A stretch of DNA of 64,000 nucleotides from a virus: positions 34,694 to 98,693 of the IMG/VR virus record IMGVR_UViG_3300034060_000856, one strand, 5' to 3'. The position numbers were made by a program, and so were the translations under genes. Below the pieces are notes generated by a model. The model ran no database searches and was not told where the DNA came from. It worked only from the letters and a program-made list of their open reading frames with translations. Shown piece after piece: positions 10,344-46,262 of the stretch; the stretch's first letter is position 1, and the number at the start of each line of letters is the position of its first letter.

Positions 10344-10790
10344 TTACCACAAAAAATCATCATTTTCGGTATTAATTTCTTCAATTTTGATAATTTTTAC
10401 GTTTTTTCCCTTATTTTTAACAGTAATTTCGTTTTCGTGGGGATAAAGTATGTTATTTCTAACAGTTTCACCCAAATTTATCTCATTTTTGGGTATTTTA
10501 GCCGTAATTAAGTAGTATTTGTCACCTAAACCGGTCAAATATGAGTGATTTGAGAGTAAATCAGCCTTATTTTCGGCAAAATGTGACCCAATTTCGTCAA
10601 AATTGATGTCTTTTTTGTCATTTACCCTTAAAATTCGGTATCCTTTGACCATTTCTGGTAGGTTTTTTAACCTATTTAGGTGGTATTTTAGCTCTTTTTC
10701 GGCCTCTTTTTCACTAAAATCCATCGTTTTTAGGGCTAAAATGAGCTCTTTTTTGTCTATTATTTCACTTAAAATGGGTAATAATTTCAT
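10344..10790 (-). CDS. hypothetical protein
   Basis: ORF; TATTTAT upstream on minus strand. Confidence 0.6.
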   Translation of the reverse strand: MKLLPILSEIIDKKELILALKTMDFSEKEAEKELKYHLNRLKNLPEMVKGYRILRVNDKKDINFDEIGSHFAENKADLLSNHSYLTGLGDKYYLITAKIPKNEINLGETVRNNILYPHENEITVKNKGKNVKIIKIEEINTENDDFLW

Positions 10791-10807
10791 ATAAATAAAT
10801 ACTTTAA

Positions 10808-10963
10808 TTAACTCTTTTTCTTATTGTATTTGATTTCTACCTCATATGGGCCGGAATTTGACTTATAATTGTCATATTTCCAGATCAAAACACAATCTTC
10901 GTGTTTAATAACCCTCTCAAATGCCTTTCTTTCTACTTGTTTTTTAACTTTTTTGTCAATCAT
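10808..10963 (-). CDS. small hypothetical protein (51 aa, absent from ORF track)
   Basis: MIDKKVKKQVERKAF...; TATATTTG host-type promoter upstream. Confidence 0.5.
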   Translation of the reverse strand: MIDKKVKKQVERKAFERVIKHEDCVLIWKYDNYKSNSGPYEVEIKYNKKKS

Positions 10964-12578: not shown

Positions 12579-13378
12579 AAATGAAACTATACGAAAAATT
12601 TATTAACCCTAGATATATCAAAATGTTCAACCACTTTTTACAAAAAGTTTGTGAACCAAAAATTAAACAAAAATATAATAGGGATGTTAAATTAACTTTA
12701 TATGGAATTTCTATTAAACCAAAAAATTCTAGTTATAATTTGATACCAAAAGATGAATTAACACAATCACAAGGAAAGGTTAGTTTTTTTATTGACTCTA
12801 ATCCTTCAAAGTTAACCCCACACAACTTTGTTGAGGGTTTAATCCTTGGTGATGGTAGAACATTTTTAAATTTACAAGATGCAACTTACTATGGGGGCGG
12901 GTTTGATAAATTCCTAGTTGATGTTCATTTTGACAAAAGACCACTATATCCTTTAGATTATGTTGCTGAAGATCCGATTACTGAAAATAAATTAGAATTT
13001 AAAAAAAATAATATAAAAACCAAGTTATTAAAAGAAAGTGTAATACTTGAATCTAGATACAATAAAAAAAGCGCTGCAAATTTTCTTTTTAGAAGAGTAA
13101 CAAAAGAAAAACTTGACGATGAATTTAAAGACACATACCAATACTATTCTGATAATTGGAGTAAAAGACATAAATACAGATTTGAAAATTTTGACCTATT
13201 TAAAAAAGTGTTTACAACAACTATAATGGATGGTGTACACGGAAGATTGATTGATGGTTTTTTAGAAACAGATGATGAAATTGGTGAACTTTATGATAAT
13301 GTATTGGAAATAATAGATGATATTTATGGTAATCGTATAGCAAGACTATGGACTCAAAAAACCGGTGAAAGAGTTTAA
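12572..13378 (+). CDS. hypothetical two-domain protein
   Basis: ORF. Confidence 0.55.
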   Translation: MVKMKLYEKFINPRYIKMFNHFLQKVCEPKIKQKYNRDVKLTLYGISIKPKNSSYNLIPKDELTQSQGKVSFFIDSNPSKLTPHNFVEGLILGDGRTFLNLQDATYYGGGFDKFLVDVHFDKRPLYPLDYVAEDPITENKLEFKKNNIKTKLLKESVILESRYNKKSAANFLFRRVTKEKLDDEFKDTYQYYSDNWSKRHKYRFENFDLFKKVFTTTIMDGVHGRLIDGFLETDDEIGELYDNVLEIIDDIYGNRIARLWTQKTGERV

Positions 13379-29975: not shown

Positions 29976-30081
29976 AGTCAAGTGGCGGAATTGGCAGACG
30001 CTGGGAGATAATACTCAAAACTCCCTGGGATAAGGTGAATTGCATACTTGTCCCGTGAAGGTTCGAATCCTTCTTTGACTA
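29976..30081 (+). ncRNA. tRNA-Leu-like RNA with 13-nt anticodon loop and long variable arm (element 1)
   Basis: AGTCAAG/TTTGACT-A acceptor, Leu-type D arm GGCGGAATTGGCAGACGC, GGGAG-ataataCTCAAAA-CTCCC, GAAGG-TTCGAAT-CCTTC. Confidence 0.7.
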
Positions 30082-30514: not shown

Positions 30515-30706
30515 ATGGAATTAATATTGTATGGAATTATTGGATGTTTGATGGGTAGTTTAATTGTGTTAATTACACTAAACCTATTTAAGTCAAAACC
30601 CTCAATTGACTATCAGGAGTTAATTAAACGATCTGAAGAACGATTAGATAAGTCAAAAAAGTATGGTGAAGAGTTAGACAGAATGTTAGAAGAAATGAAA
30701 AAATAG
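30515..30706 (+). CDS. small membrane-anchored protein between tRNA-like elements
   Basis: N-terminal TM helix plus coiled coil; TAG stop overlaps element 3. Confidence 0.6.
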   Translation: MELILYGIIGCLMGSLIVLITLNLFKSKPSIDYQELIKRSEERLDKSKKYGEELDRMLEEMKK

Positions 30707-30830
30707 TCAGGTGGCGGAATGGTAGACGCTATGAATAAAGGTTAATAGTAAAGATGACGCAGAGTAACCTTGAAAGACCCATAAGTGAAGCTCATAAGTT
30801 ATCGTATAGGTTCGAATCCTGTCCTGACTA
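30705..30830 (+). ncRNA. tRNA-like RNA with ~55-nt insert in the anticodon loop (element 3)
   Basis: AGTCAGG/CCTGACT-A, GGCGGAATGGTAGACGC, TATGA...TCATA enclosing aaggtta/taacctt hairpin, T arm. Confidence 0.7.
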
Positions 30831-30953: not shown

Positions 30954-31028
30954 AGTCAGGTGGTGTAATTGGTAGCACAACTCCGTAATAGGGAGGAGGT
31001 TATACAGGTTCGAGTCCTGTCCTGACTA
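30954..31028 (+). ncRNA. tRNA-like RNA, near-canonical length, possible AAU anticodon (element 4)
   Basis: Same acceptor/T arms as elements 2-3; GTGT/GCAC D stem; CTCC-GTAATAG-GGAG. Confidence 0.6.
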
Positions 31029-31361
31029 CAACCGGTTACTTGATTCCTGGTAGTAGAGTAACAACCGTTGGAGAATTCGGGATATCTCGTGAATGGTGGT
31101 GTAAGGTGAGAAGAACTTACGATGGTGGAGTACCAAAAACAAAAGAAACGAGACATGTGGGTGATCATATGTTGGTGCAAATCTCCACCTTTTTTAAAAT
31201 TAAAAAAAAATATTATGACACCACTATTGTTATTATTCTTTATATTGTTTATATTTGTAATAAGAAAAAGACGATAAACTTCAGTTCCCATACAGCGGTG
31301 AGATGGGCTAAGTTATATACAATTCCTCGGTGCTGGGAGTAGAAGGCTGAAGAGTCGTTTT

Positions 31362-31460: not shown

Positions 31461-31576
31461 AGTATGGTAGCTTAACTGGTAAAGTGTTTGGTGAGTAGTA
31501 AAAGGTAGGGAGTCGCGACCCAATAATATACAATAAGTCTTGTCAAAAGTTATGGGTTCGGATCCCATCCAAACTA
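31461..31576 (+). ncRNA. tRNA-like RNA with ~43-nt anticodon-loop insert (element 6)
   Basis: AGTATGG/CCAAACT-A, GCTT-AACTGGTA-AAGT D arm, TTTGGTGAG...CTTGTCAAA, ATGGG-TTCGGAT-CCCAT. Confidence 0.6.
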
Positions 31577-37446: not shown

Positions 37447-39612
37447 ATGGCAGAAATAATTATAACAGATCCGGTTGGTGGTAAGTCAACAACAGTAAGA
37501 TGTGGTTTATGTAATACGGCGTTAGGACCTAATTCGGTTGTTCTTGCCGGTAAATTTAATATAAATGAAGGAACTTGGTCATCAATACTTGGTGGTACTT
37601 ATAATGTATTAAAAGATACATCAAGTCACTCAATAATTGGAAATGGTAAATTAAATAGTTCTGACCAAAATTATGCAGTAATTGGTGGTGGTGTGTATAA
37701 CACTATTTCTGGTTCTTACTCAACGATAAGTGGTGGTAGAAGTAACACTATGACGTGTAATTCTAGGTATTCTGGGATTAATGGTGGTAGATTGAACATT
37801 ATAAACTCATTTTACGGGTCTATTGTTGGTGGGTGTTTAAATTCTGTAAGTGGTAGAAATGATATTATTGGTGGTGGGTGTTGTAATATTACAACTTGCG
37901 ATTCCGAATCATCAACAATTACTGGTGGTGAAAACAATATTTCAAACGGTTATGGTATGTCAATTAATGGTGGTTATGGAAATTCTGGTTCAGGGTATTT
38001 TAACAACCTATCAGGTGCTGAAAATACTGGTGACGCAATGTTTGGTAATGTATCCGGTTTTCAAAACACAGTTTCAAACGCTTACGAATCAACAATTAAT
38101 GGTGGTTTTGCAAACACTATTGAGTCATATACCTTTTCTTGTTTTCACACAATTGGTGGTGGTAAACAAAATACAATTACTTCATTATATGGATCAACAA
38201 TTGCCGGTGGTAGATTTAATAATTCGTCTGAAATATTCTCAACAGTATCCGGTGGATATTTTAATACCGTAACAGGTTCATATTCTTCTATATTAGGTGG
38301 TTGTCAAAATACGGTTACTTGTTCTAATTCATTTATTTTATCATCTAATTCATTACTTACAGGTCAAAATTCAGTAATTTTGGGTGGGATTTCAGTTACT
38401 GGAACTGCGGACAACACCGTTTATATTCCAAAACTTAATGTTTCATCAACATCTGGATTCCCAACATATAAATTAGGTATTGATTATGACAATAATGTTG
38501 TCACATACACGGGTGATGCACTTAATGATATAATAATCAAAGAATCTGTTGGTATACAATCAACAGTAAGAACTGATTTATCAAATACCGCAAGTGGTTA
38601 TCAATCATCAGTATTAGGAGGTGGACTTAACACCGCAACCGGTGATTATAGTACTATTGGTGGTGGTACAACTAATTTAGCAATAGGTTTAGGCTCAAAT
38701 GTTAGTGGCGGACAAGCAAACACATCATCACAATCATCATTTATTGGTGGTGGAGGAGGAAACTTCGCTGGTGAGTTTGGTTCAATATCAAGTATTAGTG
38801 CCGTAACAAGTGCGAGTTCTATTACAGATGGTATCTACATAGTCTCAACAACTGGAACGTCGTTAGGTTTTGGTGCGTTATTCTCAATACAGTTTTCTTC
38901 TGACACAATTGTAGATATAACAATTGATAACCCAGGTTTTAATTACCTAACTGGTGATACATTAACCGTACCTGGCTACGCGTTTGGTGGATCCAGTCCA
39001 GCGGATGATGTTATAATTACAGCTTTATCTACAACAACTAACCAATACAATGTTGTTGATGGTGGTTTTGCAAATGTAATTAAAGGTAATTATTCAAAAG
39101 TTGGTGGTGGAAGTTTAAATACCGTATCTGGTGATTACTCATCAACAATTGGTGGAACACAACAACAAATTATTGGTGATTTATCAAGTGCGATTTCATC
39201 AAGTGGTGTTACAATTTCTGGTGATAGTATTGTTGTTTTAGGTGTAAATGATATTACAGCAACAACTAGTAATACAGTTTATTTACCTAGTGTTGAAATG
39301 ACCGGTTCTTTAAGTAGAAATATCACTACAGTAGACGCAACCATTGATCCAAATTTAATAGGTTCTGATAGTATTGTTTTTTATGAAACACCAAGTCCTG
39401 GTGGGACTATTTACTTACCAGCAGCAAAACCAGGTAAAGAAATTATCCTAATTAGGATAGGGAATACAAATTCAGCTTTTGTAGCTGGTACTGGTTCAGC
39501 TAAAATAAATGGAGTTGGTATAGCTCAAAACTTACCAACAGTTTTGTACACCAAAACAACATTTATTAGTAATGGTACTGACTGGTACGCTAATGATGGA
39601 TCACCAATTTAA
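37447..39612 (+). CDS. tail-fibre/adhesin-like protein with S-x-I-x-GG-x-x-N beta-roll repeats
   Basis: More than 20 STIxGGxxN units. Confidence 0.75.
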   Translation: MAEIIITDPVGGKSTTVRCGLCNTALGPNSVVLAGKFNINEGTWSSILGGTYNVLKDTSSHSIIGNGKLNSSDQNYAVIGGGVYNTISGSYSTISGGRSNTMTCNSRYSGINGGRLNIINSFYGSIVGGCLNSVSGRNDIIGGGCCNITTCDSESSTITGGENNISNGYGMSINGGYGNSGSGYFNNLSGAENTGDAMFGNVSGFQNTVSNAYESTINGGFANTIESYTFSCFHTIGGGKQNTITSLYGSTIAGGRFNNSSEIFSTVSGGYFNTVTGSYSSILGGCQNTVTCSNSFILSSNSLLTGQNSVILGGISVTGTADNTVYIPKLNVSSTSGFPTYKLGIDYDNNVVTYTGDALNDIIIKESVGIQSTVRTDLSNTASGYQSSVLGGGLNTATGDYSTIGGGTTNLAIGLGSNVSGGQANTSSQSSFIGGGGGNFAGEFGSISSISAVTSASSITDGIYIVSTTGTSLGFGALFSIQFSSDTIVDITIDNPGFNYLTGDTLTVPGYAFGGSSPADDVIITALSTTTNQYNVVDGGFANVIKGNYSKVGGGSLNTVSGDYSSTIGGTQQQIIGDLSSAISSSGVTISGDSIVVLGVNDITATTSNTVYLPSVEMTGSLSRNITTVDATIDPNLIGSDSIVFYETPSPGGTIYLPAAKPGKEIILIRIGNTNSAFVAGTGSAKINGVGIAQNLPTVLYTKTTFISNGTDWYANDGSPI

Positions 39613-39686
39613 AATTATTTTTTTAAAATTATTTGACTCATAAATAAAATTATTGTAAGTTTGTAATATATTTAAAAACAAACAAA

Positions 39687-39836
39687 ATGAGTGAGACACA
39701 AAATGAAGTATTAGACGTTGAGATCTACGGATATGTAAACGCTGAAGGACAAAGAGTTTTTACACCAAATTTAGAGTTTGCCCACATTATGGCAACAAAA
39801 TACGGTACAGAACATGTCTTTATAGAAAAAAAATAA
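39687..39836 (+). CDS. small hypothetical protein (49 aa)
   Basis: MSETQNEVLDVEIYGYVNAEGQRVFTPN; TTTG-N-TAAGTTTG promoter upstream. Confidence 0.55.
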   Translation: MSETQNEVLDVEIYGYVNAEGQRVFTPNLEFAHIMATKYGTEHVFIEKK

Positions 39837-39854
39837 AAAAAATTTACAAAAAGA

Positions 39855-39925
39855 TTTGACAAATCAAAAAAAATGTCTTAACTTTGTAAAACAATTCGGA
39901 AATGACCGAATACGTTCTTTGAAAA
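39855..39925 (+). promoter_or_regulatory. host-type promoter followed by boxB-like hairpin and boxA-like element
   Basis: TTTG(39855)-N20-TAACTTTG(39879); ttcgg-aaatga-ccgaa; GTTCTTTGAAAA at 39914. Confidence 0.65.
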
Positions 39926-40776
39926 ATGAATTATCCTTTCAGGAGTAAGTAATGAAACTGATAAAGATATTGGGCCGTGTATAGTCCATAAAATAAACTG
40001 GGAAACCAGGATAAAGTGAGTAAGTTGTGTTAACTTATTTGCGGTTTAGGCAACTGAACTTGAGTACACAAGCGGGATACCGTTTAATCTTTAGTACCGA
40101 GGGCAACGCTGTAGGGAAAGTGGTTAGGTGAATTGGCAATGTGGGTTGTCAGTTTGAGATGGGAACATCAATAGGAATAACCCGTAGGAATTATGCAAAA
40201 AATAGAGTTATCCAATTTTATTATTGCGTGTTCCAGTATCATAGGATACTTAAAACCGAAAGGTATGTTGATGTACAGGTGGTGCTGTTATTAACCTTGA
40301 TTAAGTCTTACCAAAGATTTGATTTCGAAGTAGTCTAGAAATATTGAGATGGGGACATTTCACAGAGTAGTTGAGTATCGATTCGTCCAAAAGATGAATT
40401 GGCTCGGTTGACAGACCACTACTTTGATAATCCACAACACAACATTTATTACATATGGATGTAAATCATAAAATAATAATGGAAAAGTGTCTGTCAGGTT
40501 TGGATGAAAGGTGACTACATAGTAATGAGCCGTTCATTGCACACAAGGATCCCAAGTCTGAGTGTAATTATCCGAAAAACCTTTAGTCCCGCAAGGACGA
40601 ACTGGGGAGGCATCCTCAAAAAGAGTCAAGTAAGATGAGAGTAATTCAAACCTCAAGGAGTGGTAAACCTAAAAGACCGTCACTGGGAAATACTTCTCAA
40701 AAGGAAGTGGATACGAAGGGAAACAATAATCCTTCCAAAGGTTCTCAATCACAGGTGTAATCTCAACCTTTTTTTT
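39914..40776 (+). ncRNA. giant structured non-coding RNA, GOLLD-like
   Basis: ~860 nt, GC-richer than flanks, no credible ORF, many hairpins incl. GNRA loops (ctgg-gaaa-ccag, gatg-ggaa-catc, acc-gaaa-ggt), own promoter, ends in hairpin plus U-tract; family call from size and context only. Confidence 0.7.
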
Positions 40777-40888
40777 AAAATTTAAGATCTTATTAAAAAA
40801 AATTAGGGGTAACAAGTTGTTACCCTTTCCTTTTTACAAAAAATTTGATATATATTAGTATAATAAACTTTAATTAATCTTATTCAAA

Positions 40889-41047
40889 ATGAAAAAATTA
40901 TTTTTAATTTCTTTAACAATTTTCTCGACAATTTCTCTTATGACATCTTGTGGTGAAAACGGAACTGGAAACGCAACAGCTAACGCAACACCAGAAGCGA
41001 CTGTTGAAGCTACGGCCGTTGTAAAAGATACTACTGCTACTAAGTAA
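40889..41047 (+). CDS. small lipoprotein (52 aa, absent from ORF track)
   Basis: MKKLFLISLTIFSTISLMTSCGEN..., A/T-rich tail. Confidence 0.7.
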   Translation: MKKLFLISLTIFSTISLMTSCGENGTGNATANATPEATVEATAVVKDTTATK

Positions 41048-41068
41048 TTAGGATATGTCCTAAAAAAG

Positions 41069-41097
41069 AAAACCCACTTCAAAAGAGTGGGTTTTTT
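41069..41097. terminator. bidirectional intrinsic terminator
   Basis: aaaacccactt-caaaa-gagtgggtttttt between convergent lipoprotein gene and tmRNA. Confidence 0.75.
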
Positions 41098-41100
41098 AAT

Positions 41101-41508
41101 TGGTGGATCCGGAGAGTTTCGAACTCTCGTCCGGCTCGTTTTGTCTAAAAGACAACTACATGCTTAGGTTGGTATTTTCTAATACCCCAAAATATTTGGT
41201 TTTAATTTGACCAAAAACAAAGTTGATCTGTTCTTCACCATCGTAAATCAACAACCAATGGACGACTCGATTTCGGGTTCAGTCGTATTCCACCTTAGTC
41301 ACTTCTGTTCCTGAGCGTATGTGAACCGGCTCGCGTTTCCGTAAACTTATTAAGCTACAGTAACTTCAGAACCTCTTAGTAAACCAAGAGTTTCCATTTT
41401 GTTTAGCAAATTGCCAGTTGTTTTTCTAAATCAGTTTTTAACGAGATTAATTCAGTCTCGGCATGCGTCTAAAATTCAACCAACGCCCGTCAATTCCAAT
41501 ACGGACCC
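41101..41508 (-). ncRNA. ssrA: tmRNA
   Basis: 5' GGGTCCG pairs with 3' CGGATCC-ACCA (G3.U70); GGAATTGAC and GGAC-GAGAG-TTCGAAA-CTCTC; tag ORF 41415..41353 GNLLNKMETLGLLRGSEVTVA then TAA TAA. Confidence 0.93.
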
Positions 41509-41511
41509 ATA

Positions 41512-41561
41512 TTTTCAAAGAACTATACACAAATATAAGCATATTTTTAAATAAATACAAA
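41512..41561 (-). promoter_or_regulatory. host-type promoter plus boxA-like element for tmRNA
   Basis: Minus strand TTTG-N20-TATATTTG, then GTTCTTTGAAAA 3 nt before the tmRNA 5' end. Confidence 0.65.
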
Positions 41562-41574
41562 TATATTCAAAGTT

Positions 41575-42177
41575 TTAAGTGTTAATATTTGATAATCTGT
41601 TATTATTATGAATAACTAGTCTTGTATATCCATTTGGAAGCAACTTTATTGTTTTTGTAATCAAATTCATTTTATGGTGCATTTGTTCAAAAATAAAATG
41701 TTTATTTACTATTTGACAAAGTGATACATGCATTGATACAAAGTTATGTGAATATCTAGTCTTCATTGGTTTAATAGTCTTTGACTTAAAAAGGTATAGG
41801 TTTGGTTGACTTTGAATTAACATAGTATTAATACCCGACTGTAGTGTTTTAACTTTATTCCACTCTATTTGTATTTTTTGAATGTAATTTTCCCTCATCC
41901 AATCATCAAAATCGTGTCTTGTTTGAATCTCAAAAAAATCTTGTTGTAAAAATTTTTGAATTTCAGTAATATTTTTAAAAAATAATGTATTAATTTTGGG
42001 ATCAATTAACTCTCTAATAATTTCTTTATGTTTTTCATTAACAGTAAAACATAGTGTAAAATTTTTATTGATCTGTGAATTAATCCCAGGAAAAAATGTT
42101 TCTTTTGCAACCTTTAAATATTTTTTAAATAACTGGTCGTCTTGAAAATTTGCTCTAACAACTACAACGTGTTTCAT
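41575..42177 (-). CDS. putative glycosyltransferase (GT-A-like)
   Basis: FFPGINSQINKNF, IQTRHDFDDW (DxD), VIHNNN. Confidence 0.6.
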   Translation of the reverse strand: MKHVVVVRANFQDDQLFKKYLKVAKETFFPGINSQINKNFTLCFTVNEKHKEIIRELIDPKINTLFFKNITEIQKFLQQDFFEIQTRHDFDDWMRENYIQKIQIEWNKVKTLQSGINTMLIQSQPNLYLFKSKTIKPMKTRYSHNFVSMHVSLCQIVNKHFIFEQMHHKMNLITKTIKLLPNGYTRLVIHNNNRLSNINT

Positions 42178-44086: not shown

Positions 44087-46147
44087 TTAATCCTCCTTTT
44101 TCTTTCTTCCTTTTTTCTTTGGTTCTGGTTTTGACCTATCTTCAATTTCTATTGTTTGGTCTTCACCTTCTCCTTTTACAAATAACATATATTCTTTTTC
44201 TTCCAAAACTTCATTTGTTAATATTTTTTCTGAAATAAGATCTTCTATTTTATCCTGTATTGCACGTTTAATTGGTCTAGCACCATATTGTTCATCAAAA
44301 CCAACTTTAGCTATTAAATCAATAACAGACGACTCATAAGAAACCTTATATCTCATTGCAGCAAGCCTAGATATCAACTTATCAATTTCAAGTTTTACAA
44401 TTTTATCAATGTGTTCTTTCACTAAAGAATTAAAAATAACAACATCGTCAATTCTATTTAAAAATTCTGGTGCAAAAAACTTACGTAATTCTTTCTTCAA
44501 AACATCTCGTTTATATTCTTCTTGAACCGCCTCACTACTATTACTCGTTTTAAAACCAACACCGCTTCCAAAATCTTGAACTCTTCTAACCCCAATGTTT
44601 GAAGTCATAATAATCAAACAGTTTTTAAAATTAATTTTCCTACCTAGACCGTCTGTCATATGTCCATCATCTAACATTTGAAGTAGTGTTGAGAATATGT
44701 CTTTATTTGCTTTCTCAATCTCATCAAAAAGAATGACACAGTACGGTTTATTTTTTACCTGTTCTGTTAATTGTCCCCCTTCTTCGTGACCAACGTATCC
44801 TGGAGGAGAACCAATAAGTCTTGATATTGTGTGTTTTTCTTGATATTCAGACATATCAACACGAATCAAACTATCTTCGCTACCAAAAATTTCTTTCGCT
44901 AGTTTTTTCGCTAAGAATGTTTTACCAACACCGGTTGATCCTAGAAATATAAATGAACCAATTGGTCTATTTGGATCCTTAATCCCAACCCTATTTCGTC
45001 TAATTGCTTTTGATATTTTTTTAACGGCTTCTTCTTGACCAATCACATAGTCGTTAAGGGAGTCTTCTAAATTAACAAGTGAATTTTTTTCATCAATGTT
45101 AATTTTATTAACTGGTATTTTGGTCATATTTGAGACAACCTCATAGATCAAATCTTCTGGAATACCACGTTTACTAGTCCTTAACCCATCTTCAAATTTC
45201 TTTTTTTCTTCGTCAAGTTTCATTAAGATACTTTTTTCACGATCACGAAGTTCTGCCGCCATTTCATACTTTTGTTTTTTAATAACATCGGCTTTTTCTT
45301 GTTTTATATCAACAGCTTCTTGTTTTAATATCTCAATGTGTTCAGGAAGTTTAATATCAATTTGCATACGTGAACCAACCTCATCTAAAATATCAAATGC
45401 TTTATCTGGAAATTCACGATCGGTAATATATCTATCAGCTAACTCAACACACAACCAAAGTGATTCATCTGTATAATGTACTTTGTGGTGTTCTTCGTAT
45501 TTTTCCTTACTTTGTTTTAGAATTTGAAATGTTTCTTCTTTGGTGGAGGGGTCAACAATAATTTTTTGAAATCTTCTTTCTAAAGCTCCGTCTTTTTCAA
45601 AATGTTTTCTGTATTCGTCAAGTGTTGTGGCACCGATACATTGTATTTCTCCCCTAGATAGGGCTGGTTTAAAGATATTTGACGCGTCAAGTGACCCAGA
45701 ACTATTACCAGCACCAACCATTGTGTGGATTTCATCAATAAAAATTATAATGTTTGGGGTTGCCTGTAATTCTTCAATAATTACTTTCATTCGTTCCTCA
45801 AATTGTCCACGATATTTTGTACCGGCAACAATAGAATTAATATCTAAAGATACAATCCGTTTATCTGCTAAATTTTTTGGACATTCCCCACTATGGATCA
45901 TCATTGCAAGACCCTCAACAATTGCCGTTTTACCAGCACCGGGTTCACCAATGATAATTGGGTTATTTTTCTTTCTTCTAGATAATACTTGAGCAATACG
46001 TAAGATTTCTTTTTGTCTACCAATTACTGGGTCCAATTTACCTTGCTCCGCTGCTTTTATTAAATCTTTACTGAAATTATCTAAAACTGGTGTACCACCG
46101 TCTTTTTTCTTTCCTTTATCACCATCGTCTATAAATTCTATTGCCAT
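44087..46147 (-). CDS. clpC: ClpC-like AAA+ ATPase lacking the N-terminal domain
   Basis: GKLDPVIGR, GEPGAGKT, short UVR-type M domain (KQKYEMAAELRD), GSTGVGKT, ClpP-docking-like VGF loop. Confidence 0.88.
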   Translation of the reverse strand: MAIEFIDDGDKGKKKDGGTPVLDNFSKDLIKAAEQGKLDPVIGRQKEILRIAQVLSRRKKNNPIIIGEPGAGKTAIVEGLAMMIHSGECPKNLADKRIVSLDINSIVAGTKYRGQFEERMKVIIEELQATPNIIIFIDEIHTMVGAGNSSGSLDASNIFKPALSRGEIQCIGATTLDEYRKHFEKDGALERRFQKIIVDPSTKEETFQILKQSKEKYEEHHKVHYTDESLWLCVELADRYITDREFPDKAFDILDEVGSRMQIDIKLPEHIEILKQEAVDIKQEKADVIKKQKYEMAAELRDREKSILMKLDEEKKKFEDGLRTSKRGIPEDLIYEVVSNMTKIPVNKINIDEKNSLVNLEDSLNDYVIGQEEAVKKISKAIRRNRVGIKDPNRPIGSFIFLGSTGVGKTFLAKKLAKEIFGSEDSLIRVDMSEYQEKHTISRLIGSPPGYVGHEEGGQLTEQVKNKPYCVILFDEIEKANKDIFSTLLQMLDDGHMTDGLGRKINFKNCLIIMTSNIGVRRVQDFGSGVGFKTSNSSEAVQEEYKRDVLKKELRKFFAPEFLNRIDDVVIFNSLVKEHIDKIVKLEIDKLISRLAAMRYKVSYESSVIDLIAKVGFDEQYGARPIKRAIQDKIEDLISEKILTNEVLEEKEYMLFVKGEGEDQTIEIEDRSKPEPKKKGRKKKED

Positions 46148-46262
46148 AATCTTTTTCTTCAAAATTTAGGTATAAAATTACGGTATGTCAACAATTTAAA
46201 AACCGAGTATTATATACAATTAAGTTTGGGTTACTATAATATTTATTATAAAATTTTAGATT

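What the first reader, a model, noticed from the sequence alone, without database searches (positions are those of the whole stretch)
39914..40776. ~860-nt highly structured ncRNA (GOLLD-like or new class)
Seen: the only long ORF-free stretch in a very compact genome. It is GC-enriched and bounded by its own promoter and a terminal hairpin plus U-tract. It contains many helices: ctgg-gaaa-ccag, gtatc-atag-gatac, atgcaa...ttgcgt, gagtatcgattcgtc-caaaa-gatgaattggctc nested in agtagt/actact, gtcc-cgcaa-ggac, acttc...gaagt, gaagg...ccttc. Known: GOLLD (~800 nt) and ROOL (~600 nt) are giant phage-associated RNAs of unknown function, often near tRNA genes. Inference: a GOLLD-type RNA or a new giant RNA, here next to a tmRNA.
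Basis: partly seen in the sequence, partly recalled or inferred. Interest (0 to 1): 0.8.

Follow-up and report, generated by a model that had tools for sequence, protein, structure and literature searches.

The report
GOLLD RNA in a lake phage
This gene-free stretch is a clear member of the known GOLLD family of giant, cage-forming phage RNAs, made here from its own promoter behind the host phylum's rRNA-type boxA signal and next to a phage tmRNA, so it is a known kind of RNA whose function is still unknown.

Summary
Rfam's GOLLD model (3' domain only) matches window 40363-40769 end to end at 314 bits against a threshold of 150. The upstream half (about 39970-40362) is the GOLLD 5' domain. It shares its invariant blocks with env-38, the GOLLD solved by cryo-EM as a 14-mer cage. 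Across 15 homologs it has 109 pairs in 18 helices, 96% paired, 69 with compensatory changes (0 of 500 shuffles reach this).

The window is part of a 98.7 kb lake-water phage contig, about 34% complete, whose host is probably a Bacteroidota. Contigs from RNA libraries of four studies cover the GOLLD body and the tmRNA.

One added feature: the 12-mer GTTCTTTGAAAA occurs only twice in 64 kb, just upstream of GOLLD and of the tmRNA. It recurs before GOLLD in 16 of 18 loci listed (about 16 of 17 relatives) and before 16S rRNA in 24 of 28 Bacteroidota leaders. It is therefore very probably the rrn boxA, the Nus antitermination signal. This scan has reported the same boxA-GOLLD arrangement several times on other DNA. 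I found no paper on it. GOLLD's function remains unknown.

The parts
39855..39886 (+). Bacteroidota-type promoter: -33 TTTG (39855-39858) and -7 TAACTTTG (39879-39886), 20 nt apart. The predicted transcription start is about 39892-39895.
   Evidence: The pattern TTTG-N18-22-TAnnTTTG occurs 13 times in the window against 5.5 +/- 2.3 expected. Most hits lie directly upstream of genes, and one is this site. The same promoter type stands before GOLLD in the homologs. The start site is inferred, not mapped.
39894..39911 (+). Small hairpin at the 5' end of the leader (boxB-like): stem ATTCGG/CCGAAT with a 6-nt loop.
   Evidence: Found. The nearest relative L109 has the same hairpin. Bacteroidota 16S leaders often have a hairpin directly before boxA, and B. 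subtilis rrn operons have the same layout (PMC13753749).
39914..39925 (+). boxA-like element GTTCTTTGAAAA, the presumed NusB/S10 loading site.
   Evidence: There are only two exact copies in 64 kb; the other lies 3 nt before the tmRNA. GTTCTTT[GA]A stands 8-85 nt before the GOLLD core in 16 of the 18 loci listed, which include the window's own copy L001. The same word lies 82-283 nt before 16S in 24 of 28 Bacteroidota leaders, four of them the exact 12-mer.
39926..39969 (+). Leader spacer holding two conserved words: ATCC(A/G)TTCAG, and GATAAAGATATT directly before the core.
   Evidence: Leader comparison. Length is variable: the spacer is 8-9 nt in L043, L032 and L123 and up to about 80 nt elsewhere. 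Its function was not determined.
39970..40362 (+). GOLLD 5' domain, the 'cap' domain of the cage in env-38.
   Evidence: It is conserved in 14 IMG/VR and huge-phage homologs. It has 109 pairs in 18 helices, 96% of cells paired against 78.5% shuffled and about 40% slid, 69 pairs with double changes, and 0 of 500 shuffles reach this. It shares invariant blocks with the env-38 construct, which starts at the equivalent of about 39970.
40363..40769 (+). GOLLD 3' domain, the universally conserved part covered by Rfam RF02032.
   Evidence: 314.4 bits against a gathering score of 150, model positions 1-416 of 416, not truncated.
40427..40485 (+). Variable A-rich linker. It is disordered and faces the cage interior in env-38. 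There is no tRNA insert here.
   Evidence: This is the unpaired, poorly conserved stretch in the Rfam alignment and in A2. It is closed by a covarying helix, 40410-40419 with 40487-40495. Its role in env-38 is described in PMC12286853.
40496..40505 (+). 5' arm of the Rfam pseudoknot. In env-38 this pairing is the intermolecular kissing bridge B7.
   Evidence: It pairs 10 of 10 with 40644-40653 and covaries among homologs (columns 630-639 with 779-795). The intermolecular reading comes from PMC12286853.
40644..40653 (+). 3' arm of the same pseudoknot or bridge.
   Evidence: As for the 5' arm.
40754..40777 (+). Last GOLLD hairpin (GGT-GTAATCTCA-ACC) followed by U8, the likely 3' end.
   Evidence: Seen in the Rfam alignment. 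The hairpin is conserved and covaries, but the U-run follows it in only about half of the homologs. The env-38 construct ends at this hairpin.
40805..40827 (.). Strong two-way terminator hairpin with a 10-bp stem and T-runs on both sides. It backs up termination of GOLLD and of the convergent tmRNA/small-ORF unit.
   Evidence: Found.
41101..41561 (-). Neighbouring phage tmRNA gene (41101-41508) with its own TTTG..TATATTTG promoter (41561-41530) and the same boxA 12-mer (41523-41512), 3 nt before the mature 5' G.
   Evidence: Rfam gives tmRNA at 99.6 bits. Sequence is and the motif. The same promoter-boxA-AATAT-GGGG layout stands before the tmRNAs of L109, L103 and L123.

Best explanation
Window about 39893-40777 (+) is the transcription unit of a GOLLD RNA of the env-38 type. 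The mature core is about 800 nt (39970-40769).

Shown:
- It is a full member of the GOLLD family in both domains.
- It is conserved with extensive compensatory base-pair changes.
- It lies in a large lake-water phage whose ClpB/ClpC-like gene is most similar to Bacteroidota genes.
- Sequences identical to it are present in RNA libraries.

Inferred from the solved relative: the RNA folds into a 5' 'cap' domain and a 3' 'ring' domain joined by a disordered A-rich linker, and self-assembles without protein into a closed homo-oligomeric cage. Env-38 forms a 14-mer. The number here is uncertain because this RNA lacks a roughly 17-nt extension of the P11 arm.

Inferred from sequence: it is transcribed from its own host-type promoter. 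The nascent leader (5' hairpin, then GUUCUUUGAAAA) is the host phylum's rrn boxA. It would load NusB/S10 and convert RNA polymerase to the Rho-resistant rRNA mode, so that a long untranslated RNA can be completed and made in quantity. The same signal precedes the adjacent phage tmRNA and many phage tRNAs in related loci, so GOLLD belongs to the phage's set of stable, translation-related RNAs.

What the cage does is unknown. My best guess, at about 30%, is that it holds or shields translation RNAs or ribosomal particles late in infection.
For: Family identity.
- Rfam GOLLD scores 314.4 bits (threshold 150), full model, E about 4e-89.
- All 14 full-length homologs score 270-328 bits.
- 5' domain: nhmmer finds full-length relatives. 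Covariation is strong, with 211 pairs overall, 142 of them with compensatory changes. In the 5' domain alone 96% of cells are paired, 69 pairs have double changes, and 0 of 500 shuffles reach this, against about 40% paired when slid.
- The env-38 construct sequence begins and ends at the equivalent positions and shares the invariant blocks.

Cage. Cage formation of env-38 and its two-domain architecture are described in PMC12286853. Dependence of oligomer number on peripheral helices is described in PMC12990946.

Phage and host.
- The window is part of an IMG/VR virus record of 98,693 b, 34% complete.
- The nearest records are 635-642 kb uncultured phages.
- The best cellular relatives of the ClpB/C-like gene (57-59%) are all Bacteroidota.
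- The TTTG..TAnnTTTG promoter pattern is enriched.

RNA presence. Contigs of four metatranscriptome studies cover 39953-40751 and 41174-41499. Several are letter-perfect: X15 records 4 and 5, and X18 record 21.

boxA.
- Only two exact copies occur in 64 kb, both directly 5' of the two large RNAs.
- It is conserved before GOLLD at variable distance from the promoter, before 4 of 5 phage tmRNAs, and before 16S in 24 of 28 Bacteroidota leaders.
- The hairpin-then-boxA layout and NusB binding of the near-identical B. subtilis element are shown in PMC13753749.
Against: - Nothing here shows the 5' or 3' end of the RNA, its level, or its timing. The RNA data are assembled contigs, many of them from related phages at 90-99% identity.
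- Oligomer state is extrapolated from a relative. This RNA and 10 of the other 14 aligned homologs lack the P11 arm extension, which makes an inter-chain contact in env-38.
- boxA function is inferred from sequence only. No boxC-like GT-rich word follows it here, unlike in many 16S leaders.
- One relative (L002) and one tmRNA (L034) lack the word.
- Only 1 of 5 sampled host ssrA genes has it.
- The biological role of any GOLLD is unknown in the literature.
Confidence: 0.85

Rival explanations
1. The RNA is GOLLD, but GTTCTTTGAAAA is not a Nus-factor boxA. It might be a promoter-proximal element (initial transcribed or discriminator-like sequence), or a processing signal for leader removal by RNase P, RNase E or RNase III, that stable-RNA genes share.
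For: Before the tmRNAs the word sits at a fixed 6 nt from the mature 5' end and only 4-7 nt after the -7 box. That fits a promoter or processing role as well. No boxC-like word follows it in the phage leaders. No binding or functional data exist.
Against: Before GOLLD its distance from the -7 box varies from about 16 to 75 nt, and its distance to the core from 8 to 85 nt. That argues against a fixed promoter or cleavage-site role. The same word lies 82-283 nt before 16S in 24 of 28 Bacteroidota leaders, often after a hairpin, which is the defining position of rrn boxA. It matches the B. subtilis NusB-binding consensus AUGAUCUUUGAAA at 10 of its 12 bases, 11 of the 13 aligned positions.
Confidence: 0.2
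2. The stretch is a new class of giant RNA that only resembles GOLLD in part.
For: Rfam's model covers only the 3' half, and GOLLD 5' domains are described as variable.
Against: The 3' half matches the whole model at twice the gathering score. The 5' half is collinear with the 5' domain of the published env-38 GOLLD and shares its invariant blocks. All homologs are GOLLD by Rfam.
Confidence: 0.01
3. The stretch is a self-splicing intron, another known large RNA (ROOL, OLE, RNase P), or a cryptic protein-coding region.
For: It is long and highly structured, and short ORFs of up to 65 aa exist.
Against: A sensitive cmscan to E = 1 over 39600-41100 lists only GOLLD plus three sub-threshold chance hits in the flanks. 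Substitutions among homologs preserve base pairs rather than a reading frame.
Confidence: 0.01

Closest known systems
GOLLD RNA env-38 (JCVI_SCAF_1096627009515/1239-410), the marine metagenomic GOLLD solved by cryo-EM as a D7 14-mer nanocage (Kretsch et al. 2025, PMC12286853)
   Same: Both have the same two-domain layout, with the same start (GGCCG..TATGGTC hairpin) and end (GGTGTA(A/T)TCTCA hairpin). They share the invariant 5'-domain blocks, the A-rich linker at a similar position, the 3' domain and the bridge B7 pairing. Tracing the variable P11 arm separates the two forms. Env-38 lies downstream of tRNA-Met, as do many relatives of this window.
   Different: This RNA is about 800 nt against 833 nt. 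It lacks the roughly 17-nt GGGG-AAA-CCCC extension of the P11 arm (against A2), so its oligomer number may differ. It comes from a freshwater phage, has its own promoter and boxA leader, and a tmRNA rather than tRNA-Met is its immediate neighbour.
GOLLD family as defined by Weinberg et al. 2009 and Rfam RF02032
   Same: It matches the model over its full length. It is phage-borne, derives from lake water, and lies near tRNA-type genes.
   Different: Nothing essential differs. The model covers only the 3' domain. This subgroup, from Bacteroidota-type phages, has a well conserved 5' domain.
Bacterial rrn operon leader (promoter, boxB-like hairpin, boxA, boxC) and the Nus/S10 antitermination complex
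   Same: Both have a promoter-proximal hairpin followed by boxA. The word is the same as before 16S genes in Bacteroidota and nearly the same as the NusB-binding B. subtilis boxA.
   Different: The cargo is a phage GOLLD RNA or a tmRNA, not rRNA. No boxC-like word was seen. GOLLD has a single promoter here, while two TATATTTG boxes stand before the tmRNA. Nus factor involvement is untested.
ROOL RNA, the other phage-associated cage-forming giant RNA
   Same: It has a similar genomic habit (phages, tRNA islands) and also forms an RNA-only cage.
   Different: Its sequence and fold are unrelated, and there is no Rfam ROOL match here.

Membership tests
GOLLD RNA (Rfam RF02032) | Covariance-model match above the curated gathering score over the whole conserved 3' domain | tested here: met
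   314.4 bits against 150, model positions 1-416 of 416, E 3.8e-89.
GOLLD RNA (Rfam RF02032) | Conserved long-range pseudoknot of the 3' domain (intermolecular bridge B7 in env-38) | tested here: met
   40496-40505 pairs 10 of 10 with 40644-40653, and the pairing covaries in 15 sequences.
GOLLD RNA (Rfam RF02032) | Large size (about 800 nt) with a separate structured 5' domain and a variable linker | tested here: met
   The core is 39970-40769. The 5' domain has 18 helices, is 96% paired and has 69 compensatory pairs. The linker is 40427-40485.
GOLLD RNA (Rfam RF02032) | 5' domain homologous to that of a published GOLLD (env-38) | tested here: met
   The env-38 construct in the paper's supplementary table was read directly against alignment A2. 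It has the same start and end and the same invariant blocks.
GOLLD RNA (Rfam RF02032) | Location in a phage or prophage, near tRNA-type genes | tested here: met
   The window is in a virus record. The tmRNA lies 331 nt away, tRNAs lie about 9 kb upstream, and tRNAs or tmRNA are present in all 14 related loci.
GOLLD RNA (Rfam RF02032) | Protein-free homo-oligomeric nanocage | not testable with these tools
   Known for env-38 (14-mer) and S. agalactiae GOLLD (10-mer). It needs mass photometry or cryo-EM of this RNA.
GOLLD RNA (Rfam RF02032) | Expressed as a discrete RNA, rising during phage lysis | tested here: inconclusive
   Contigs of RNA libraries from four studies cover the body, and some are identical to the window. 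Contigs show neither ends, strand, level nor timing.
rrn-type boxA antitermination leader | boxA word identical or near-identical to that of the host group's rRNA leaders | tested here: met
   GTTCTTTGA.. lies before 16S in 24 of 28 Bacteroidota leaders, and four carry the exact 12-mer. The window has the exact 12-mer at 39914 and at 41523 on the minus strand.
rrn-type boxA antitermination leader | Position in the transcribed leader, between the promoter and the stable RNA, often after a hairpin | tested here: met
   The order is promoter 39855-39886, hairpin 39894-39911, boxA 39914-39925. The same order is seen in the homologs. The transcription start is inferred.
rrn-type boxA antitermination leader | boxC-like GU-rich element after boxA | tested here: not met
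   Many 16S leaders have (A/G)GTGTGC or GAGTGAGTG after boxA. The phage GOLLD leaders have ATCC(A/G)TTCAG instead.
rrn-type boxA antitermination leader | Binding of NusB/S10 and resistance to Rho termination | not testable with these tools
   This needs biochemistry or a reporter assay.
ROOL, OLE, group I/II introns, RNase P RNA | Covariance-model match | tested here: not met
   No match at gathering score in the window, and none at E up to 1 in 39600-41100.

The most novel reading that the evidence does not exclude
In large Bacteroidota lake phages, GOLLD, tmRNA and tRNA genes would form one class of boxA-led stable-RNA units that borrow the host's rRNA (Nus/S10) antitermination machinery. 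GOLLD would then be made at rRNA-like levels as part of a phage translation-RNA toolkit, with the cage acting on tRNA, tmRNA or ribosomal particles. That would give the first handle on GOLLD regulation and a concrete partner set to test. This scan has noted the boxA-GOLLD link several times on other DNA. I found no paper on it.
Probability: 0.4. Interest if true: 0.55.

Novelty: new member of a known kind. Interest (0 to 1): 0.3.

Why it matters
GOLLD is one of the largest bacterial or phage RNAs with no known function, and was recently shown to build RNA-only cages larger than a ribosome.

This copy adds no new class, but it is a clean example with useful properties:
- It has its own promoter and terminator.
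- It has a full env-38-type 5' domain with a shortened P11 arm, which offers a natural test of what sets cage stoichiometry.
- A conserved rrn-type boxA leader is shared with the neighbouring tmRNA.

If the boxA reading holds, GOLLD synthesis is tied to the host's rRNA transcription mode and to the phage's translation RNAs. That narrows the search for its function.

Tried and rejected
- **ARAGORN** found only two tRNAs and missed the window's tmRNA. Rfam was used instead for the window and for the homologous loci.
- **RNA contigs.** The bins 39500-39807, 40809-41116 and 41502-41800 have no cover in any of the four RNA runs. Absence of contig cover cannot be taken as proof of discrete transcript ends, and summed word depth cannot rank GOLLD against tmRNA. 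I use only the presence of cover.
- **Published GOLLD alignment.** I searched it for exact 5'-domain words of this window and found nothing. The file holds only the 3' end of env-38, and env-38 differs by two bases in the word searched. The construct table settled the question instead.
- **Host ssrA leaders.** Only 1 of 5 Bacteroidota tmRNA genes has a boxA-like word, so the phage arrangement is not simply copied from host ssrA.
- **Leader-trailer processing stalk, as in rRNA operons.** The consensus fold gives only three weak pairs between the ends (columns 6-8 with 918-920). I claim no support.
- **Local hairpin gtatc-atag-gatac.** It is not conserved.
- **Covariance model of the 5' domain.** Not attempted, because the alignment exceeds the 400-column limit.
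- **L009.** This partial or rearranged GOLLD-like copy, and the truncated copies L053 and L035, were left out of alignment A2.
- **Literature.** Searches for a GOLLD-antitermination link or a boxA-tmRNA link found nothing relevant.

Full report
**What is there.** The window is positions 34694-98693 of an IMG/VR virus record of 98,693 b that CheckV rates 34% complete. That makes it a fragment of a large phage. Between the end of a 721-aa gene (39612) and a 200-aa gene on the other strand (41575) lies the longest stretch of the window without an ORF of 80 aa or more. It holds two tiny ORFs, the finding, and a tmRNA. Inside 39914-40776 no ORF exceeds 65 aa. GC rises to 0.36-0.40 from 0.27-0.30 in the immediate flanks. 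The single sequence folds 3.8 sd better than shuffles.

**Identity.**
- Rfam's GOLLD model matches 40363-40769 (+) at 314.4 bits against a gathering score of 150, over all 416 model positions, E about 4e-89.
- A permissive scan of 39600-41100 lists no other family above chance. ROOL, OLE, introns and RNase P are therefore excluded.
- The Rfam model covers only the conserved 3' domain of GOLLD, so the 5' half was tested separately.

**The 5' half.**
- blastn finds two 635-642 kb uncultured phages whose match spans the whole element.
- A scan of IMG/VR with a 14-mer invariant in the 5' half, followed by nhmmer, gives 14 full-length homologs. All of them are GOLLD by Rfam at 270-328 bits.
- In the 15-sequence alignment A2 the consensus fold has 211 pairs, 142 with compensatory double changes.
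- For the 5' domain alone (109 pairs, 18 helices), 96.0% of cells are paired, against 78.5% after shuffling and about 40% when partners are slid.
- In that domain 69 pairs show changes on both sides against 41.5 +/- 3. No shuffle of 500 reaches any of the five measures.
- The construct used for the cryo-EM structure of GOLLD env-38 is printed in the supplementary table of Kretsch et al. 2025. It begins at the position equivalent to about 39970 and ends at the hairpin equivalent to 40754-40769. It carries the same invariant blocks as A2.
- Both domains are therefore those of the published GOLLD. The core is 39970-40769, about 800 nt against 833 nt for env-38.

Six of the seven listed helices are real. 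The local gtatc/gatac hairpin is not conserved.

**Differences from env-38.**
- This RNA and 10 of the other 14 aligned homologs lack a roughly 17-nt extension of the P11 arm that env-38, L103 and L076 have.
- Peripheral helices of this kind decide whether a GOLLD forms a 10-mer or a 14-mer (PMC12990946). A cage is expected here, but its subunit number is open.
- The pairing that forms the inter-chain bridge B7 in env-38 is intact: 40496-40505 pairs 10 of 10 with 40644-40653.

**Expression signals.**
- A Bacteroidota-type promoter stands at 39855-39886, with TTTG and, 20 nt further on, TAACTTTG. The pattern is enriched in the window (13 against 5.5 +/- 2.3) and mostly sits just upstream of genes.
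- The promoter is followed by a small hairpin (39894-39911) and the 12-mer GTTCTTTGAAAA (39914-39925).
- This 12-mer occurs exactly twice in 64 kb. The second copy lies 3 nt before the mature 5' end of the tmRNA on the other strand.
- The core GTTCTTT[GA]A precedes the GOLLD core in 16 of the 18 loci listed, which include the window's own copy L001. Its distance from the promoter and from the core varies.
- It precedes 4 of 5 phage tmRNAs in a fixed layout: -7 box, boxA, AATAT, GGGG. It also precedes many phage tRNAs.
- In 16S rRNA leaders fetched from a sample of Bacteroidota genomes the same word occurs once, 82-283 nt before 16S, in 24 of 28 leaders, often after a hairpin. Four of them have the exact 12-mer. 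About 0.05 per leader would be expected by chance.
- It matches the B. subtilis rrn boxA consensus, which binds NusB and also follows a 5' hairpin, at 10 of its 12 bases, 11 of the 13 aligned positions (PMC13753749).
- I therefore read it as the host phylum's rrn boxA. Nus-factor binding and antitermination are inferred, not shown.
- No boxC-like word follows it in the phage leaders. Only 1 of 5 host ssrA genes has such a leader.
- At the 3' end, the last GOLLD hairpin is followed by U8 (40770-40777), and a strong two-way terminator lies at 40805-40827.

**Host and habitat.** The ClpB/ClpC-like gene at 44087-46162 (-) has its best cellular relatives (57-59%) only in Bacteroidota. That agrees with the promoter type and the boxA word. 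DNA runs that hold the stretch are lake-water metagenomes.

**RNA evidence.** Six metatranscriptome runs hold part of the stretch. I laid four of them, from four studies, on 39500-41800. Their contigs cover 39953-40751 and 41174-41499, and several are identical to the window. This shows that GOLLD and tmRNA sequences of this phage or its close kin are present in RNA libraries. It does not give ends, strand or level.

**Context in relatives.** GOLLD lies beside tRNA-Met in many loci and inside arrays of 24 and 17 tRNAs in L013 and L076. It lies within about 2.5 kb of a tmRNA in L109, L034, L103 and L123 as well as here. That matches the published habit of GOLLD near tRNA islands and adds tmRNA as a recurrent neighbour.

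**How it most likely works.**
- Shown: GOLLD membership and conserved structure.
- Inferred at about 0.7: protein-free self-assembly into a cage, by homology with env-38.
- Inferred at about 0.6-0.7: boxA-dependent, Rho-resistant transcription, as for rRNA.
- Speculative, at about 0.3: the cage acts on translation RNAs or ribosomal particles late in infection, as Kretsch et al. suggest. Pull-downs with ribosomes and tRNA inserts in other GOLLDs point the same way.

**Novelty.** GOLLD has been known since 2009 and this copy is found directly by Rfam, so the finding is a new member of a known kind. The boxA leader is not in any paper I could find. However, this scan has already reported it several times on other Bacteroidota-phage GOLLD loci, and a first-reader note on this same stretch gave me the lead. 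My tests here agree with those notes.

Noticed in passing
window 41101-41561 (-): A phage tmRNA (Rfam 99.6 bits, missed by ARAGORN) has two TATATTTG -7 boxes about 29 nt apart, and the boxA 12-mer only 3 nt before its mature 5' G. The same promoter-boxA-AATAT-GGGG layout stands before the tmRNAs of L109, L103 and L123.
   Followed up: partly
window 29976-30081, 30705-30830, 31461-31576 (+): Rfam calls tRNA over 106-126 nt, far longer than a tRNA, and ARAGORN does not call these. They look like tRNA-like genes with large inserts. The nearest relative L109 has the same kind at 10710-10825 and 13013-13118, and a boxA core lies upstream of one of them (L109 11133, minus strand).
   Followed up: no
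window 30954-31029 (+): ARAGORN calls a tRNA-Ile with anticodon AAT. This is unusual for bacteria and phages, where GAT is the norm.
   Followed up: no
window 39687-39836 (+) and 40889-41047 (+): Two tiny ORFs (49 and 52 aa) flank GOLLD. Each stands behind promoter-like sequence; the first follows a full TTTG..TAnnTTTG match. The second begins like a lipoprotein signal peptide and is conserved after GOLLD in L109. Neither has a Pfam match.
   Followed up: partly
window 44087-46162 (-): The phage encodes a ClpB/ClpC-like double AAA+ chaperone that is 57-59% identical to Bacteroidota proteins. I used it here as a pointer to the host phylum.
   Followed up: partly
L013:3694-8411 and L076:1-5533: GOLLD is embedded in arrays of 24 and 17 tRNA genes, with boxA cores scattered between blocks of tRNAs.
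   Followed up: partly
window 40430-40442 (+); A2 columns about 549-560: The start of the otherwise variable linker keeps a conserved word, ATCCACAA (ATCTACAA in some). Its meaning is unknown.
   Followed up: no
L009:2405-3256 (-): This GOLLD-like copy matches only positions 100-761 of the query, and a 5'-domain-like block lies displaced upstream. It may be rearranged or misassembled.
   Followed up: no
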